This document shows, piece by piece, positions 1,973-58,009 of a stretch of DNA of 64,000 bases (position 1 is its first letter; each line of letters begins with the position of its first letter). Origin of the DNA: an uncultured Nitrososphaerota archaeon. GTDB lineage: Archaea; Thermoproteota; EX4484-205; JAAOZO01. The position numbers and the translations under genes are program-made. The notes under the pieces are model-generated. The model saw only the letters and a program-made list of their open reading frames with translations, was not told the origin of the DNA and made no database searches. The stretch lies in contig CAYOYV010000006.1 in assembly GCA_964408285.1 (NCBI GenBank), forward strand, positions 11,274 to 75,273, read 5' to 3'.

Positions 1973-3370
1973 ATGTCCGTGAGCGATCTGCTGGAGTCGT
2001 GTGTCCAGAAGGGGCTGGCACTAGGTTCCAGCTTCTGTGAAGCGAGATTCTTCGAGGAAAGAGGGGCAAATATCTCTGTAGAAAATGGCATTGCGAGATC
2101 CTTGGGATCTGGGATAATCAGGGGGGTAGGAATAAGGGTCATACTAGGCGACAAATGGGGCTTTGCGTCCACTAATGTGATTAATCAAAATAGCATAGAA
2201 AGAGCACTCAATGACGCAATCGGGGGCTCGAAATCAATAGCTGGACAAGGTGGAGAAGAGGCGAAGATTGTTGAATCCAAGCCCATGATCGATACGGTCG
2301 TGCACAAGGTGAAGGTGGATCCAGAGGACGTGAGCCCTGAGGAGAAGGTCAAGAGGATACTTGAGATAGAGAAAGCCGCCAGAACCTATGACGAGCGCGT
2401 GAAGGATACCTCTGCAAGCTATAGGGATGTCCTGACGAGAGTAATGATATGTAACTCCTTTGGGACATCCATCGAGGAAACAACCCCTAGGACTCGAGTA
2501 TTCTGCAGAGCAATATCAAGGGAAGGTGAGAATCAGCAAATAGGGTTCGAGTTCGTCGGCAATGTTGCTGGTTACGAGCTCGTTGAGGGCATCAGAGAAG
2601 AGGAGTTCTCGAGAAGGGCAGCCGAGAAGGCTGTGAATTTGCTGAAGGCGCAATCTCCTCCTCGGGGTTCACTTCCGATAATAATGGACCAACAAGTGGG
2701 CGCTACCTTCGTCCACGAGGCATTCGGTCATAACAGTGAAGGGGATTTGGTGTTCGGTGGGCAATCGATAATCTCAGACAAGATGGGAAGGAAAGTCGCG
2801 AGCAGCTTGGTCACTATAATAGATGATCCGACTCAAGTCAAATATGGTCACTTCGTATATGACCATGAAGGGACAAGAGCTAGGCCGCACGTGATAGTGA
2901 AGGATGGAGTTCTAGTTGGATTCCTTCACTCATTAGAATCCGCCGCCAAGTTGGAAGGTGAGCCAGCCGGAAGTGCCCGTGCTCAATCGCATCAATATCC
3001 GCCCATCGTGAGAATGTCGAACACTTACTTCGCTCCAGGAGACAAGTCAATTGAGGAGATGATGGAGGGCATACAACTAGGTGTTTATCTCTCAGGTTCT
3101 GACTATGGATATGTGGAAACGCAGAAGGGCCAGTTCACATGCCATGCCGAACAAGGTTGGCTAATAGAGAAAGGCAAGCTCACTGAGCATCTCAGGGATG
3201 TTGCCGTCAATGGTATCACGTTAGATGCTCTAAACAATGTGACTGCCGTAGGCAAGGACTTCAAGATGGAAGCGCCTGGAACGTGCGGCAAGATGGACCA
3301 AGGAATGTATGTCGACGGAGGGTCCCCTCCCATCAAGATCGAAGGGGTAGTTGTAGGAGGCCGGAGGTGA
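1973..3370 (+). CDS. tldD: TldD family metalloprotease
   Basis: HEAFGH zinc motif, RMSNTY and GTCGK.DQ motifs. Confidence 0.9.
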   Translation: MSVSDLLESCVQKGLALGSSFCEARFFEERGANISVENGIARSLGSGIIRGVGIRVILGDKWGFASTNVINQNSIERALNDAIGGSKSIAGQGGEEAKIVESKPMIDTVVHKVKVDPEDVSPEEKVKRILEIEKAARTYDERVKDTSASYRDVLTRVMICNSFGTSIEETTPRTRVFCRAISREGENQQIGFEFVGNVAGYELVEGIREEEFSRRAAEKAVNLLKAQSPPRGSLPIIMDQQVGATFVHEAFGHNSEGDLVFGGQSIISDKMGRKVASSLVTIIDDPTQVKYGHFVYDHEGTRARPHVIVKDGVLVGFLHSLESAAKLEGEPAGSARAQSHQYPPIVRMSNTYFAPGDKSIEEMMEGIQLGVYLSGSDYGYVETQKGQFTCHAEQGWLIEKGKLTEHLRDVAVNGITLDALNNVTAVGKDFKMEAPGTCGKMDQGMYVDGGSPPIKIEGVVVGGRR

Positions 3371-27533: not shown

Positions 27534-28521
27534 GCTGAGAAAACCTAGGAGGCTTGTCATAAGGGAAGAGTCAACGACATCTTGGGATTATGGCTGGAAC
27601 CCGAATCTAAGACGATTGGATCAATTGGTGGACTCTGGCGTAATAGTCCTTGACAAACAGAGCGGCCCCACCAGTCATGATTTTGTGGCAACCCTGAAGA
27701 GACTCCTGAATCTCAAAAAAGCCGGTCACAGCGGGACCCTTGAGTGAATTCGGGGAAATCCTGGCGTGACTGGAGTACTAATCGCGCTTTCCGGAGCAGC
27801 CACAAACCTGGTCCCATACTTGCATAGGCTAGGAAAGGAATATGTCGGAGTTGGGGAGCTGCATTCCGACGTATCAAAATCCAAACTTCAGGAAGCGATG
27901 GGTATATTCATAGGGCAGATATTCCAAAGACCCCCTGTTAGGGCTTCGGTCAGCAGGAAGTTAAGGACAAGATCTGTCTTCTACTTTGACCTTTTGGAAT
28001 ACGAGGATAGACGATTTCTTTTCAGGGTTGGAACGGAAGCAGGTACATACATAAGGAAATTGATACATGACCTTGGGCTGTTGACTGGATCGGGAGCTCA
28101 TATGGTTCAGCTTCGAAGGACTAGGGACGGCCCCTTCGGCGAGTCTCAATCACATGGGATGTGGAGCATCGCCTTGGCCCTTGAGATATATAGATCACGA
28201 AATGATGAGACCGAGCTAAGGAAAGTAATACTACCGATAGAATCGGCAATTGCTCTATATCCATCGATTTATATCAAGGACGGTGCAGTTTCTGCAGTGT
28301 GTCATGGCGCTAATCTCTCGATTGGTGGCGTCTCGTCATTTGAGGAACCTGTGGAAAAGGGAAACGTTGTTTGCGTGAAAACTCTCAAGGGCGAGCTAGT
28401 GGCAATGGCCAGGTCAGAGAAGGATTCTCATGGTCTGCTAAATGACAGAACTGGTCTAGCTGCAATCACCGAGAGGGTTCTAATGGATAGAGGGCTATAT
28501 CCAAAAATGTGGAGACAATAG
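27514..28521 (+). CDS. cbf5: H/ACA pseudouridine synthase Cbf5, interrupted by a 15-nt BHB intron (exons 27514-27742, 27758-28521)
   Basis: LDK.SGPTSH, GHSGTL[D]PGVTG, QRPP, GTYIR and a PUA domain; removing the intron gives a 330-aa ORF. Confidence 0.93.
27743..27757 (+). other. BHB mRNA intron in cbf5 (AGTGAATTCGGGGAA)
   Basis: GGGA-CCCU-[UG|A]...GGGG-[AA|A]-UCCU; excision restores the GAT codon of the catalytic Asp. Confidence 0.9.
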
Positions 28522-52465: not shown

Positions 52466-53679
52466 CGCCTCTCGAAAAGCCTACTTACAGTTGCCCTCTG
52501 GCCAATCTGGGCAACTATCGGGATCTCCAGATTCAGTTCGGCTATCTTGCCCTTCTTCGAAGTGATAGTGCCCCTGCTTGTCCCAACTCCCACGTTCAGA
52601 TTCAGCTTTTCTCCCACTGAAACTGGCTTGACCTCCTGAAGGCTTTCTGTCCCTAGCAGTTTTTCAAATAGCTCCAACTCAAGCCCGAGTGCCCTCACAA
52701 CGGGAAGTGGATTGTCAGAAGGCGAGAGAATAGAACCAGAAAGCCTATCGTTCTTCGCAAGGGCTGGATCAAGAGACGTGCCGACTGCTATGAGCCCTCC
52801 TGCATTGGCCTCGTCCAATGAGGCACCATCGAACATAATGGAACCGACAGTGCTCTCCAAGAGCAGATTGGAGTAATTCGGACTCGTTCCCCTTAACCAT
52901 CCCGGTGAGATGAGAATTCGATCCCCTAAGGAGAGTTTGCCACTTGTGATAGATCCCCCAACGACCCCGCCATTTATCTGCTCCAATGGAACCCCAGGCC
53001 TGTTCACATTGAACGACCTTATGATTGGCATCCTAAGCTGGGCATTCGGATCCCTCTTTGGATTCGGAAAATATTCCTCTAGGGCCCACATCAATATATC
53101 TATATTGAGACTTCTCTCGGCAGAAACCGGTATCACTGGGGACTGACCGTAACCTGCTTCAGAAAGAAATTGGGCTATCTGCTTCTGATTCTGGATCGCA
53201 GTTTCCCTGTCGACCAGGTCTACCTTGTTCTGAATGACCAGAATCTTCTCAAGGCCTAGGACTTTGGCTGCATAGAGATGTTCCCTTGTCTGTGGTTGAG
53301 GACAGTCCTCATTTGCGGCTATTATAAGGAGTGCGCCGTCCATTATTGCGGCTCCACTGAGCATGGTCGTCATTAGCACTTCGTGGCCTGGGGCATCGAT
53401 GAATGAGATGCTCCTGACGAACTCACATGTATGTCCTTTTGGGCAGGTTGCTCGCGTAAAGTAATTGTAAGGGGGATCGCAGGTGTTGCACTTGTACACC
53501 GACATCATCGCGTAACCGAGCTTTATCGTTATGTTCCGAGCAATCTCTTTGCTATATCTACTCGTAAAGACTCCTGTCAGTGCTTTCACAAGGGAAGTCT
53601 TGCCGTGGTCGACATGGCCTAAGGTCCCTATGTTGATTTCTGGTTTTCTCAGCACCAATTCGATGAAGCCCGTCTTCAC
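52432..53679 (-). CDS. eif2g: translation initiation factor aIF2 subunit gamma
   Basis: [21 protein letters not shown], QTREH and RWRLIG motifs; real start probably near 53658. Confidence 0.96.
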   Translation of the reverse strand: [415 protein letters not shown]

Positions 53680-55686: not shown

Positions 55687-57512
55687 TCACTTCAGGTATC
55701 CCCAATAGGGTTCCTTCTGTCTCTTTATCTTGGTTATTTCCTCGATGGCATCCAACATGTCTTGCGTGGCGAACTGGGACAGGTTCGTCTTTAGGGAAAT
55801 CGCATCTGAAGCCCTGATCTCAACGTACAATGTCTCTCCTTCCTGCACATTTCTTCCCATGACGGCCTCCTTAATGGATATCGACACCTCATCCCCCTTC
55901 TTTGCCTCATTGACCGACTGATCCTGCAGCCTTATGGAGTCAATAGCTCCTATTCTTTCGCCACCTTCACTAATCAAGTTGGAACCTTGTCGCATCAATC
56001 CCTTTTCAACCCTTACCCCGAATATGGCTGGTTTGCTCCTCCTAAAGACAAAGCCTGGCATTATGAACAGCTTGGCGGGCGTGACCAACTTTGAGAAGAG
56101 CTCTTCAGCTGTAGCCTTCTCATAGCTAGTCTTCCAGGAGAAGTATTCATCCATCAGGCCGTATATGACCTTACCCGTCATTATCCTGACTCCCAAGTCT
56201 CTTGCCGCCTCCTCTGCCTCCCCTGTTACGTCTACGTTGAACGCAATTATCACCCTCTGAGTCATGTCTCCGGATGCCGTTGAGGCGCCAATGACATCCT
56301 TCTTGGTTACAGGACCTATATCCGCCATCCTCACCTTGATCGCCTTCGATTGAAGCTCAGGGACAATCGCCTCAAGCGCCCCCAACGTATCGGCCTTCAG
56401 GATTATGCCTTGGATTTCCGTCTTGAACAGGATGGAGGACACCTCTTGCGACAATTCCTCAATTGCTCTTCTCTGTTCCTCCAAAGTATTGCAGACTATT
56501 ACGCTTGAGCCAGCCAGTGCGCCGGCTAGATCTGGGCCACTCAACTTTATTCCGCTGGAGGCCCTCATCTGTGCAACTGAATCAAACCTGTCCCTGGGGT
56601 CGCGTATTTCATCCAATGGCTTAGGAGAAAGAAGGGCCCGAACCTTTGTGACCGTTGGTCCGGTTAACGTTGTGAGTGCGATGGAATCGCCCACCTTGAT
56701 GATGCCGTCATATACGATGACGTTTATCGTTGTGCCCAACCCAACATCCTCCGTTACCTCGAGGACTACGCCCTTGCCCCTGTTCGACTTTGTCTCCAAG
56801 GATTTCGTTTGGAAGGACTGAATCATTCCCGACATGACCGCGATCAGTTCCGCGATTCCCTCTCCCGTCTTAGCGCTGACAGGGACAACTGGATTCTTAT
56901 CCTTGAAATCACTCAGAGAATAGAACAAATCCGTAGTTAGGCCAAGCTTGGATACCTGCCCTACGATATCATACAGCTTCTGCTCGAGCAATTTTCTTGT
57001 ACCTGGTTCCTGCTCCTTGATTGCCTTTAGGAATGAAAGAGAACTGGACGGACGCCAACCTCTCGTGAGATCAATCTTGTTTGCCGCAATGACGAAAGGA
57101 GTCTTTCTTGACCTGAGTATCTCAATAGACTCTATGGTCTGGGGCATGACACCGGCCGTGATGTCTATTACAAGGATCGCAAAGTCTGCTATTGATCCCC
57201 CCCGTTTTCTCAAATTCATGAACGCTTCATGACCAGGTGTGTCAATTACCAATAGCCCCCCGATTTTCAGCCTTGAAGCCACTTCAATTCCCTCTATCTG
57301 GCCCACGACATCAACCAATGTGTCTAGTGGAAGATATGAGGCCCCAACGTGCTGGGTTTGGGACGGTTTCTACCGCTATCCCCCCGGCTTCCCTTTTGGC
57401 CACTAAGGTGCCTCTTATCTTATCCAGAAGGGACGTCTTGCCATGGTCCACATAGTCCCCAGACATGCAAGGTATGACCTAGAACCACGACTATGGGTTC
57501 CCTTAGGCGCAA
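55687..57512 (-). CDS. infB: translation initiation factor aIF5B/IF2 with two BHB introns (exons 57512-57474, 57451-57377, 57357-55687)
   Basis: GGGGTGAT RBS, TTG start; spliced product [44 protein letters not shown]...DTPGHEAF, 594 aa. Confidence 0.92.
57358..57376 (-). other. 19-nt BHB mRNA intron 2 of aIF5B (GCGGTAGAAACCGTCCCAA)
   Basis: GGG-GGGA-[UA|G]-CGGU-agaa-ACCG-UCCC-[AA|A]-CCC. Confidence 0.9.
57452..57473 (-). other. 22-nt BHB mRNA intron 1 of aIF5B (ACCTTGCATGTCTGGGGACTAT)
   Basis: UCUA-GGUC-[AU|A]-CCU...GGG-GACU-[AU|G]-UGGA. Confidence 0.87.
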
Positions 57513-57553
57513 ATTATATCACCCCCCAAAACGGCCGAACTACGTCCGTCCGT

Positions 57554-58009
57554 TTAATAAACGTATTCTGAAATGGGACTCTTCCAGTCCTGTATCTCGT
57601 CCTTCCTGAAAAGTAGGGAGATCTCCTTTGTTGCGATCTCAACCGAATCGGAGCCGTGAATAAGGTTCTTTCCTGTGGATAGGGAATAATCTCCTCTGAC
57701 CGTTCCAGGCTGTGCTTGCAGGAAATCGGTCGCACCGATCATATTCCTGACAACCTTCACACAATCGGGTCCCTCCAGAATAAATGCTACTATCGGACCT
57801 GTCATCATGAATTCTATAAGTTCATTGAAGAATTGCTTTCCCCTATGTACTGAGTAGAATTCCTCAAGCATCTGTTTGGATGGTCTAGTCATCTTCAGCC
57901 CGATCATCCTAAATCCTTTGTCCTCGAATCTGCGTATTACCTCGCCGATGAGCCCCCTGTAAACACAGTTCGGCTTAAGCAGCACCAGTGTCCTTTCCTC
58001 TTGGACCAA
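57554..58009 (-). CDS. ndk: nucleoside diphosphate kinase
   Basis: [16 protein letters not shown] and NLIHGSDS motifs. Confidence 0.96.
   Translation of the reverse strand: MVQEERTLVLLKPNCVYRGLIGEVIRRFEDKGFRMIGLKMTRPSKQMLEEFYSVHRGKQFFNELIEFMMTGPIVAFILEGPDCVKVVRNMIGATDFLQAQPGTVRGDYSLSTGKNLIHGSDSVEIATKEISLLFRKDEIQDWKSPISEYVY

What the first reader, a model, noticed from the sequence alone, without database searches (positions are those of the whole stretch)
57452..57473. 22-nt BHB intron in the P-loop (GHVDHGKT) of aIF5B/IF2
Seen (minus strand): CTA GGT CAT [ACCTTGCATGTCTGGGGACTAT] GTG GAC CAT GGC AAG ACG. The fold is central helix GGUC/GACU, bulges AUA and AUG, inner pairs CCU/GGG, and outer pairs UCUA/UGGA. 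Unspliced RNA ends at a TAA after 30 codons. Removing both introns gives a 594-aa protein with a 75-nt middle exon. The aIF2gamma gene nearby has the same GHVDHGKT motif with no insertion. Inference: two splicing events are needed to make this factor.
Basis: partly seen in the sequence, partly recalled or inferred. Interest (0 to 1): 0.9.

Follow-up and report, generated by a model that had tools for sequence, protein, structure and literature searches.

The report
Two tiny introns split archaeal aIF5B
The only gene for an essential translation start factor in this uncultured archaeon is broken by two very short insertions shaped like the sites cut by the tRNA-splicing enzyme, so its RNA probably has to be spliced twice, which is rare for archaeal protein genes.

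Summary
On the minus strand, infB/aIF5B is split into 39 nt, [22 nt], 75 nt, [19 nt] and 1671 nt. Each insertion sits in a canonical bulge-helix-bulge (hBHBh') motif. Cutting after the 2nd base of each 3-nt bulge restores GHVDHGKT and GGITQH in frame. The product is a 594-aa protein that aligns without gaps to intronless orthologues.

It is the only infB in the genome. The insertions are unchanged in DNA contigs of three other runs.

Relatives carry introns at the same sites, with different lengths (17-33 nt), in-frame stops and compensatory base changes. Intron 1 is in 6 of 6 genomes of the window's family. Intron 2 is patchy across at least seven families.

Two EndA homologues and RtcB are encoded. 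The same genome has similar mini-introns in dnaG, pyrG and cbf5.

No RNA data exist, so splicing itself is inferred. In the literature I searched, only cbf5 and one Haloferax 5'-UTR are known BHB-spliced mRNAs.

Verdict: real, new member of a known kind, high interest.

The parts
57474..57512 (-). infB/aIF5B exon 1: TTG start plus 12 codons, ending in ...VVVLGH (first half of the G1/P-loop motif)
   Evidence: Translation. Relatives have the same N-terminus with ATG or TTG starts. A GGGGGGTGAT stretch lies 5 nt upstream (read; calling it a ribosome-binding site is my inference).
57452..57473 (-). Intron 1, 22 nt: the finding itself. The BHB motif spans 57447-57483: outer helix 57480-57483 with 57447-57450; central helix 57476-57479 with 57454-57457; 5' bulge 57475-57473; 3' bulge 57453-57451; inner helix 57470-57472 with 57458-57460.
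   Evidence: 4 of 4 central pairs, outer 4, inner 3. Conserved in 6 of 6 genomes of the family, with 95.5% of cells paired.
57377..57451 (-). Exon 2, 75 nt, 25 codons: VDHGKT...REAGGI (second half of G1 up to the switch-1 region)
   Evidence: Translation. Ungapped alignment to intronless orthologues.
57358..57376 (-). Intron 2, 19 nt. The BHB motif spans 57351-57388: outer GGG/CCC (57383-57385 with 57354-57356) plus 2 more pairs beyond a C-A mismatch; central GGGA/UCCC (57379-57382 with 57360-57363); bulges UA|G and AA|A; inner CGGU/ACCG with loop AGAA.
   Evidence: BHB -15.9 against MFE -16.0 kcal/mol. Covariation over 25 sequences.
55687..57357 (-). Exon 3, 556 codons plus stop: TQHVGA... 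to the end. Carries the rest of the GTPase domain, domain II, the IF-2 domain and domain 4.
   Evidence: Translation. Pfam GTP_EFTU, GTP_EFTU_D2, IF-2 and GTP_EFTU_D4. It aligns from residue 39 of PDB 1g7r_A and residue 50 of 5fg3_A.
57554..58009 (-). Upstream neighbour on the same strand: nucleoside diphosphate kinase (context; possibly the same transcript)
   Evidence: ORF. Pfam NDK, E 8e-53. Co-transcription is an inference.
53596..53619 (-). Uninterrupted GHVDHGKT in a 415-aa ORF.

Best explanation
The infB (aIF5B) gene carries two archaeal bulge-helix-bulge introns of 22 nt and 19 nt. One lies inside the P-loop (GH|VDHGKT) and one inside the switch-1 region (GGI|TQH).

Proposed mechanism:
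1. In the primary transcript each intron, together with a few flanking exon bases, folds into an hBHBh' motif.
2. The tRNA-splicing endonuclease cuts after the second base of each 3-nt bulge. The genome encodes two EndA paralogues, so it is probably the heteromeric crenarchaeal type.
3. RtcB joins the three exons.
4. Only the doubly spliced mRNA encodes the 594-aa factor. Unspliced RNA gives a 30-residue peptide, and RNA spliced only at intron 1 gives 59 residues.

Shown:
- the anatomy, and the frame restoration at the canonical cleavage sites
- single copy, and presence in independent DNA assemblies
- conservation and covariation of the motif in relatives
- presence of the enzyme genes

Inferred: that cleavage and ligation actually happen, the type of endonuclease, and any regulatory role.
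For: (1) Exact anatomy.

(2) Canonical cleavage restores GHVDHGKT and GGITQH. The 594-aa product aligns from residue 1-3 to about 591 with five intronless orthologues, with no gap in the first 60 residues. Exon 3 starts at residue 39 of the 594-aa 1g7r_A, and exons 1 and 2 supply 38 residues.

(3) infB matched at only one place in the own genome. The second hit is a weak match to another GTPase-like frame.

(4) Contigs from three other runs cover both introns with no gap and at most one difference. No intronless DNA form was seen.

(5) Of the 49 relatives' loci I read, 25 have intron 2 and 7 have an intron at or beside the intron 1 site.
- Lengths are 17-33 nt, often not a multiple of three.
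- The 18-nt and 27-nt in-frame ones contain stop codons.

(6) Covariation.
- Intron 2: 97.0% of 334 cells are paired, against 27.7-41.9% when the partner is slid. 7 of 14 pairs change on both sides, and 0 of 500 shuffles reach the observed values for four of the five measures (3 of 500 for the number of pairs changed on both sides). The central helix is 100% paired while switching GGGA/UCCC to GCCA/UGGY.
- Intron 1: 95.5% paired against 24-64% slid.

(7) The exon codon that forms the outer helix is constrained. Thr is ACC in 24 of 25 intron-2 genes and in 7 of 24 intronless ones.

(8) Two PF01974 (EndA) hits and one RtcB are above cut-off.

(9) The same genome has BHB mini-introns with the same cleavage rule in dnaG, pyrG and cbf5. 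The cbf5 intron sits where the experimentally spliced crenarchaeal cbf5 intron sits (PMC2738675, passages read).
Against: - No RNA evidence of any kind: no run listed as RNA holds the stretch.
- For intron 1 the BHB is not the predicted fold of the naked RNA. It scores -4.9 against an MFE of -11.1 kcal/mol, with ensemble probability 7e-6. The region folds no better than shuffles (z +0.56).
- The intron 1 covariation rests on only 6 related sequences. 17 of 500 shuffles reach the observed score.
- The genome is 93.7% complete, so a second intact infB on an unassembled piece is not strictly excluded.
- The genome-wide scans gave weak support or none: 44 hits against 28-29 in offset controls, and no excess under looser criteria (101 against 100-116).
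- In a cell with coupled transcription and translation, a BHB 39 nt after the start codon must be cut before ribosomes unwind it. How that is achieved is unknown.
Confidence: 0.85

Rival explanations
1. Translational recoding: ribosomes bypass or frameshift over the two insertions, as in phage T4 gene 60 hopping (recalled), and no RNA splicing occurs.
For: Both insertions are 3n+1 nt long in this genome (22 and 19), so two shifts could in principle restore the frame. No RNA data exclude it.
Against: - Reading through with a shift would add 7 and 6 residues inside the P-loop and switch 1, which are ungapped in all intronless orthologues.
- In relatives the insertions are 17, 18, 20, 22, 24, 27, 31 or 33 nt long. 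The in-frame ones contain stop codons.
- What is conserved is base pairing with compensatory changes, not a take-off/landing codon pair or a slippery site.
Confidence: 0.03
2. The gene is a decaying pseudogene, or the insertions are assembly or sequencing artefacts.
For: Taken at face value the frame is broken twice. The genome is a 46-contig assembly, 93.7% complete.
Against: - It is the only infB in the genome.
- The 556-codon exon 3 is intact and 61-62% identical to orthologues in the same family.
- Contigs from three other runs carry the same insertions.
- The same two sites are interrupted in many species, including single-contig genomes with a single infB match (G032, G039).
- The interruptions always obey BHB geometry.
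Confidence: 0.03
3. The BHB sites are cut by EndA but mainly as a switch. Most transcripts are cleaved and degraded or left unspliced, and ligation is conditional. The introns would then throttle aIF5B synthesis according to tRNA-splicing capacity, rather than being neutral passengers.
For: - Intron 1's BHB is thermodynamically weak in this genome, which would make splicing inefficient or conditional.
- The four intron-bearing genes (infB, dnaG, pyrG, cbf5) are core growth functions, and all five introns lie within the first 77 codons.
- Yokobori et al. raised a regulatory role for the cbf5 intron (PMC2738675, passage seen).
Against: - There are no expression data.
- Intron 2 has been lost cleanly in close relatives (G002 and G004) and is absent from 14 of 15 genomes of family f4 with no other visible change. 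This argues against an indispensable regulatory role.
- This is a refinement of the best explanation, not an alternative to splicing.
Confidence: 0.08

Closest known systems
cbf5 pre-mRNA intron of Desulfurococcales and Sulfolobales (Watanabe 2002, known to me only as cited; Yokobori 2009, PMC2738675, passages read)
   Same: - A short intron (16-44 bp there; 22 and 19 nt here) inside a protein-coding sequence and within a catalytic motif.
- It is flanked by a BHB motif with cleavage between the 2nd and 3rd bulge residues.
- The hosts have hetero-oligomeric EndA.
- The distribution is patchy, implying gain and loss.
   Different: - A different gene (a translation GTPase rather than a pseudouridine synthase).
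- Two introns in one gene, with a 75-nt internal exon.
- The motifs here are canonical hBHBh', whereas most cbf5 motifs are described as relaxed.
- A different lineage.
- cbf5 splicing was shown by cDNA and in vitro cleavage; here nothing was shown at the RNA level.
BHB intron in the 5' UTR of HVO_1309 mRNA, Haloferax volcanii (PMC7714728, passages read; PMC10485636, passages read)
   Same: An mRNA substrate of the tRNA-splicing endonuclease outside tRNA and rRNA.
   Different: It lies in the untranslated leader, so it does not interrupt a reading frame. The host is a euryarchaeon with a homodimeric enzyme.
Archaeal tRNA and rRNA BHB introns
   Same: Same motif, same predicted enzymes (EndA, RtcB) and same size range. 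This genome's tRNA genes are themselves intron-rich.
   Different: Those substrates are stable RNAs. Here excision decides a reading frame, and it must compete with translation.
IRE1/RtcB unconventional splicing of XBP1/HAC1 mRNA in eukaryotes (mentioned in PMC13149111; the details are recalled)
   Same: A small intron is removed from an mRNA by a protein endonuclease and an RtcB-type ligase without a spliceosome, and excision changes the reading frame.
   Different: The endonuclease (IRE1) and the recognition structure (twin stem-loops) are unrelated. It is stress-regulated and eukaryotic.

Membership tests
Archaeal BHB (hBHBh') intron, substrate of the tRNA-splicing endonuclease | Two 3-nt bulges on opposite strands separated by a 4-bp helix | tested here: met
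   Intron 1: GGUC/GACU between AU|A and AU|G. Intron 2: GGGA/UCCC between UA|G and AA|A. Both have 4 of 4 pairs. The central helix is 100% paired in 24 distinct intron-2 sequences and in 6 intron-1 sequences.
Archaeal BHB (hBHBh') intron, substrate of the tRNA-splicing endonuclease | Flanking outer (h) and inner (h') helices | tested here: met
   Intron 1: outer 4 bp, inner 3 bp. Intron 2: outer 3 bp (plus 2 beyond a mismatch), inner 4 bp with a 4-nt loop.
Archaeal BHB (hBHBh') intron, substrate of the tRNA-splicing endonuclease | Cleavage between the 2nd and 3rd bulge residues yields the functional product (rule as stated in PMC2738675) | tested here: met
   These exact sites remove 22 and 19 nt and give a 594-aa ORF that aligns without gaps to intronless orthologues.
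Archaeal BHB (hBHBh') intron, substrate of the tRNA-splicing endonuclease | Structure rather than sequence is conserved among homologous introns | tested here: met
   7 of 14 pairs show double changes, with 97.0% of cells paired against at most 41.9% when slid. One search is weaker (6 sequences, 2 of 11 pairs).
Archaeal BHB (hBHBh') intron, substrate of the tRNA-splicing endonuclease | The host encodes the splicing endonuclease and an RNA ligase | tested here: met
   Two PF01974 hits (105.3 and 67.6 bits) and one PF01139 RtcB hit (560.7 bits) in the own genome.
Archaeal BHB (hBHBh') intron, substrate of the tRNA-splicing endonuclease | The spliced junction and the excised intron are observed in RNA | not testable with these tools
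   No run on record as RNA holds the stretch. All runs laid were DNA contigs.
aIF5B / IF2 translation GTPase | GTPase domain with G1 (GHVDHGKT) and DTPGH, then domain II, the IF-2 domain and domain 4, full length about 594 aa | tested here: met
   Pfam hits on exon 3. PDB aIF5B chains at E 7e-144 to 8e-131, starting at residue 39 of 1g7r_A. G1 is complete only after intron 1 is removed.
Self-splicing group I or group II intron, or another curated RNA family | A ribozyme core of hundreds of nucleotides, or a match to an Rfam model | tested here: not met
   The insertions are 22 and 19 nt. Rfam found 0 matches at E up to 1 in 57200-57700.
Programmed frameshift or translational bypass | The insertion can be read or hopped over by the ribosome, with conserved recoding signals | tested here: not met
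   Homologous insertions vary in length class, and the in-frame ones carry stops. Conservation is in base pairing.

The most novel reading that the evidence does not exclude
This lineage is an order-level group of Thermoproteota; the best-matching named record my one genome-collection scan returned, at 47% identity, is titled Candidatus Brockarchaeota. It may hold an active, spreading population of endonuclease-dependent mini-introns in core protein genes. This one genome has at least five, in infB (two), dnaG, pyrG and cbf5.

Features that point this way:
- The infB switch-1 site needs at least 4 gains or losses on the gene tree.
- An intron one base away from the P-loop site occurs in an unrelated family.
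- In one genus the interiors of introns 1 and 2 are nearly identical, as if intron 1 arose by copying intron 2 into a BHB-compatible site 75 nt upstream.

If true, this would be a prokaryotic system in which intron gain, intron loss, multi-intron genes and mini-exons can be studied without a spliceosome. It would also tie translation, replication and nucleotide synthesis to the tRNA-splicing machinery.
Probability: 0.35. Interest if true: 0.88.

Novelty: new member of a known kind. Interest (0 to 1): 0.78.

Why it matters
Protein-coding genes that need the tRNA-splicing endonuclease are extremely rare in the literature I could search.
- Within a coding sequence, only cbf5 is reported.
- One Haloferax 5'-UTR intron is also known.

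An essential translation initiation GTPase that cannot be made without two such splicing events would be a clear addition. It has a 75-nt internal exon, and the introns are conserved across several Thermoproteota families.

It also has practical weight. Gene callers will annotate these infB, dnaG, pyrG and cbf5 genes as truncated or frameshifted. That affects marker-gene phylogenies and completeness estimates for these lineages.

The recurrent use of the same site, and the 5'-proximal position of all five introns, give testable handles on how such introns are gained and how splicing competes with coupled translation.

Tried and rejected
- RNA evidence: the look-up of sequencing runs listed 13 runs, none on record as RNA, so no RNA holder was listed. 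Reads were laid on DNA contigs of four runs.
- Thermodynamic folding alone does not recover the intron 1 BHB. I therefore rely on geometry and comparative data.
- My first reading of the intron 2 MFE fold gave a 3-bp central helix and a 20-nt excision that would break the frame. Re-registering the G run gives the canonical 4-bp GGGA/UCCC helix and 19 nt, confirmed across 24 distinct sequences.
- Genome-wide census of BHB introns that merge ORFs:
  - loose criteria showed no enrichment (3067 against 3044-3244; 101 against 100-116);
  - stricter criteria gave a weak excess (155 against 124-135; 44 against 28-29);
  - from those lists I accepted only pyrG and dnaG by eye, and treated candidates such as C14:17227-17249, C1:283079-283103 and C11:40885-40901 as probable gene junctions or unresolved. 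L069, fetched for the last of these, was not analysed.
- The metagenome scan found no close (family-level) relatives to enlarge the intron 1 alignment. The best hit was 46% identical and carries intron 2 only.
- The genome-contig scan gave only 12 loci, 6 of them archaeal. Two of those (L033, L036) gave no motif in my script.
- L063 gave no motif.
- 5 of 30 pyrG loci gave no motif.
- ARAGORN found no tRNA in the window, and Rfam found nothing at the locus.
- Literature: eight searches found no report of a BHB intron in infB/aIF5B, dnaG or pyrG. Subscription journals and supplementary files were not searchable, so prior description cannot be excluded.
Full report
**What is there**

On the minus strand of the window, downstream of a nucleoside diphosphate kinase gene (57554-58009; Pfam NDK), lies a gene for the archaeal translation initiation GTPase aIF5B/IF2. 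It cannot be read as one frame. Its pieces are:

| Piece | Coordinates | Length | Content |
|---|---|---|---|
| Exon 1 | 57512-57474 | 39 nt | TTG start, ...VVVLGH |
| Intron 1 | 57473-57452 | 22 nt | the finding |
| Exon 2 | 57451-57377 | 75 nt | VDHGKT...REAGGI |
| Intron 2 | 57376-57358 | 19 nt | |
| Exon 3 | 57357-55687 | 1671 nt | TQHVGA... to the stop |

- Exon 3 carries Pfam GTP_EFTU, GTP_EFTU_D2, IF-2 and GTP_EFTU_D4.
- Exon 3 matches solved aIF5B structures at E 7e-144 to 8e-131. The match begins at residue 39 of the 594-residue chain 1g7r_A. Exons 1 and 2 supply exactly the missing 38 residues.
- Joined in a script, the three exons give 594 codons. They align with five intronless orthologues from residue 1-3 to about 591, with no gap across either junction.
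- Unspliced RNA stops at TAA after 30 codons. RNA lacking only intron 1 stops after 59 residues.
I did not confirm the aIF2gamma name of that neighbouring ORF with a tool.

**The fold**

The rule stated for the experimentally studied cbf5 introns is cleavage between the second and third residues of each bulge (PMC2738675, passage read). Under that rule a canonical motif reads, from outside to inside: outer helix, 3' bulge, 4-bp central helix, 5' bulge, inner helix.

| | Outer helix | Central helix | 5' bulge | 3' bulge | Inner helix |
|---|---|---|---|---|---|
| Intron 1 | UCUA/UGGA | GGUC/GACU | AU\|A | AU\|G | CCU/GGG |
| Intron 2 | GGG/CCC | GGGA/UCCC | UA\|G | AA\|A | CGGU/ACCG, loop AGAA |

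Both fit this layout. The canonical cleavage sites are precisely the boundaries that restore GHVDHGKT and GGITQH.

Loose BHB geometry occurs at about 1.4e-4 of all (site, length) combinations in this genome (55,476 hits). Two hits at the only frame-restoring boundaries are therefore far beyond chance.

Thermodynamics agree for intron 2: the BHB scores -15.9 against an MFE of -16.0 kcal/mol and holds 35% of the ensemble. They do not agree for intron 1: -4.9 against -11.1 kcal/mol. This is the main weakness of the structural argument for the 22-nt intron in this particular genome.

**Not an artefact and not a pseudogene**

- The genome (46 contigs, 93.7% complete) has one infB.
- Contigs assembled from three other runs span both insertions with no gaps and at most one base difference. 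No intronless DNA form was seen.
- A short contig in one of those runs matches exon 1 and then continues with a different 22-nt interior that keeps the central-helix strand. It comes from a related strain or species (table 7).

**Relatives**

I read the N-terminal region of infB in 49 loci. Thirty came from a search of 40 relatives. Nineteen of 20 more were fetched from a 400-genome sample of the phylum. This second batch was chosen largely because the open frame was short (three for a reported in-frame stop), so it is biased towards intron carriers.

Intron 1 site:
- It is occupied in all 6 genomes of the window's own family (17, 17, 17, 18, 18 and 22 nt).
- It is empty in the 18 loci read from the other three families of the order.
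- An unrelated family (G072) has a 31-nt BHB intron one base further on.

Intron 2 site, occupied in 25 loci:

| Family | Loci with intron 2 |
|---|---|
| f1 (own family) | 4 of 6 |
| f2 | 1 of 1 |
| f3 | 2 of 2 |
| f4 | 1 of 15 |
| f11 | 15 of 15 fetched |
| f17 | 1 of 1 |
| f38 | 1 of 1 |

- Every f11 row visible had a short open frame.
- Two single-contig f11 genomes (G032, G039) have a single infB match.
- A named record titled Candidatus Brockarchaeota (L032) and one metagenome contig (L133) also carry intron 2.

Lengths range from 17 to 33 nt. The 18-nt and 27-nt in-frame versions contain stop codons, so they cannot be translated through.

**Covariation**

On an alignment of the 25 intron-2 sites (A1), the structure I named was scored:
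- 97.0% of 334 cells are paired, against 27.7-41.9% when the 3' partner is slid by 1-3 columns.
- 7 of 14 pairs change on both sides.
- No shuffle out of 500 reaches the observed values for four of the five measures (3 of 500 for the number of pairs changed on both sides).
- The central helix stays 100% paired while the exon strand changes from GGGA to GCCA and the intron strand from UCCC/UCCU to UGGU/UGGC.
- The inner helix differs almost completely between lineages but stays paired.

The exon is constrained as well. The Thr codon that forms the outer helix is ACC in 24 of 25 intron-bearing genes and in 7 of 24 intronless ones.

For intron 1 (6 sequences, A2), 95.5% of cells pair against 24-64% when slid. 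Two pairs change on both sides, including U-A to C-G in the central helix. With so few related sequences this control is weak: 17 of 500 shuffles reach the score.

**History**

On a maximum-likelihood tree of exon-3 proteins (30 rows), intron 1 marks one clade with 100/100 support. Intron 2 needs at least 4 changes, 3 of them forced by well-supported branches. It has therefore been gained or lost repeatedly. This is a gene tree with midpoint rooting and several long branches, so I cannot tell gains from losses.

**Machinery and context**

- The genome encodes two proteins with the endonuclease catalytic domain (105.3 and 67.6 bits) and one RtcB ligase. Two paralogues fit the heteromeric enzyme of Crenarchaeota, which the literature links to mRNA and relaxed-motif splicing (PMC2738675). 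The subunit type is my inference.
- ARAGORN finds only 21 tRNA genes, most of them with introns.

**The same thing in other genes of this genome**

| Gene | Place | Length | Junction | In relatives |
|---|---|---|---|---|
| dnaG (archaeal primase) | G000:C15:5526-5546 | 21 nt | ...EGVVD \| KHDVIGAVFGQTEG | intron in 23 of 30 loci, all from the four families of this order; contiguous in 7 of 7 from other families |
| pyrG (CTP synthase) | G000:C1:204628-204650 | 23 nt | VTGGVLSS / GKG | 3 of 25 resolved loci |

- The cbf5 position is the one reported for the crenarchaeal cbf5 intron (PMC2738675).
- All five introns lie within the first 77 codons of their genes and inside catalytic or nucleotide-binding motifs.
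- A strict scan for BHB sites whose excision merges ORFs gave 44 hits at the canonical cleavage offset against 28-29 at four control offsets. Looser scans showed no excess. The full number of such introns is unknown.

**Mechanism, as I read it**

The pre-mRNA forms two independent BHB motifs. Each uses a few exon bases for the outer helix and for the 5' strand of the central helix. EndA cuts at the four bulge sites, and RtcB joins exon 1 to exon 2 and exon 2 to exon 3. Only then is a P-loop GTPase encoded. These steps are inferred from the anatomy, the comparative data and the known chemistry of the pathway. None was observed, because no RNA run is listed.

I do not know whether the introns are neutral passengers or throttle synthesis of the factor. 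Clean loss of intron 2 in close relatives argues against an indispensable role.

**Comparison with what is known**

In the library I could search, reported endonuclease-spliced archaeal mRNAs are:
- cbf5 (coding sequence; Desulfurococcales and Sulfolobales; 16-44 bp);
- the 5' UTR of HVO_1309 in Haloferax (PMC7714728; PMC10485636; PMC2738675).

Eight full-text searches found nothing on infB/aIF5B, dnaG or pyrG. Subscription journals and supplementary files were out of reach.

The infB introns meet every sequence-level criterion of a BHB intron that I could test. They differ from cbf5 in four ways: the host gene, canonical rather than relaxed motifs, being two in one gene with a 75-nt middle exon, and their lineage.

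**Verdict**

I rate it a new member of a known kind. Confidence that these are RNA-level BHB introns is 0.85, and interest is 0.78.

Noticed in passing
window 27743-27757 (+ strand): cbf5 is interrupted by a 15-nt BHB mini-intron: central helix CCCU/GGGG, outer helix 5 bp, inner helix 1 bp. [quoted passage not shown] That is the position reported for the cbf5 intron of Desulfurococcales and Sulfolobales, so the known intron, or a convergent one, extends to this lineage.
   Followed up: partly
G000:C15:5526-5546 (minus strand; locus L068/L100): A 21-nt BHB intron in archaeal dnaG between ...EGVVD and KHDVIGAVFGQTEG. A homologous intron (21-33 nt, with variable paired interiors) is present in 23 of 30 relatives' loci, all from the four families of this order. 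It is absent from 7 of 7 loci of other families.
   Followed up: partly
G000:C1:204628-204650 (minus strand; locus L067/L070): A 23-nt BHB intron in CTP synthase (pyrG), inside VTGGVLSS/GKG. It is shared only with G002 and G004 (3 of 25 resolved loci), and the inner helix differs between them.
   Followed up: partly
L005, L007 (genus g2): infB introns 1 and 2: In G003 the 11-nt interiors of intron 1 and intron 2 are identical at 10 of 11 positions (8 of 11 in G001). This would fit intron 1 having arisen as a copy of intron 2 placed 75 nt upstream. It could also be chance in short hairpins.
   Followed up: no
L062 (G072, family f23): A 31-nt BHB intron (central GGCA/UGCC, 9-bp inner helix, only 1 outer pair) sits one base downstream of the intron 1 site in the infB P-loop of an unrelated family. 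This suggests independent use of nearly the same site.
   Followed up: partly
window 57474-57523, run X6 record 10: A 277-nt contig matches exon 1 with 5 differences and then continues with a different 22-nt interior that keeps the central-helix strand. It is a co-occurring relative with a diverged intron 1.
   Followed up: no
first codon of infB exon 3 in 49 loci: The Thr codon that pairs in the outer helix is ACC in 24 of 25 intron-2 genes and in 7 of 24 intronless genes. Synonymous codon choice in the exon seems constrained by the intron's structure.
   Followed up: yes
own genome, all contigs: ARAGORN finds only 21 tRNA genes in a genome 93.7% complete. Most have introns, several at non-canonical positions. 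One call with a 1514-nt 'intron' and several odd anticodons look like artefacts. Many tRNA genes are probably too interrupted to detect.
   Followed up: no
infB, dnaG, pyrG, cbf5 of G000: All five introns lie within the first 77 codons of their genes and inside catalytic or nucleotide-binding motifs. I did not test whether this reflects where BHB-compatible exon sequence exists, a need to splice ahead of ribosomes, or biased loss.
   Followed up: no
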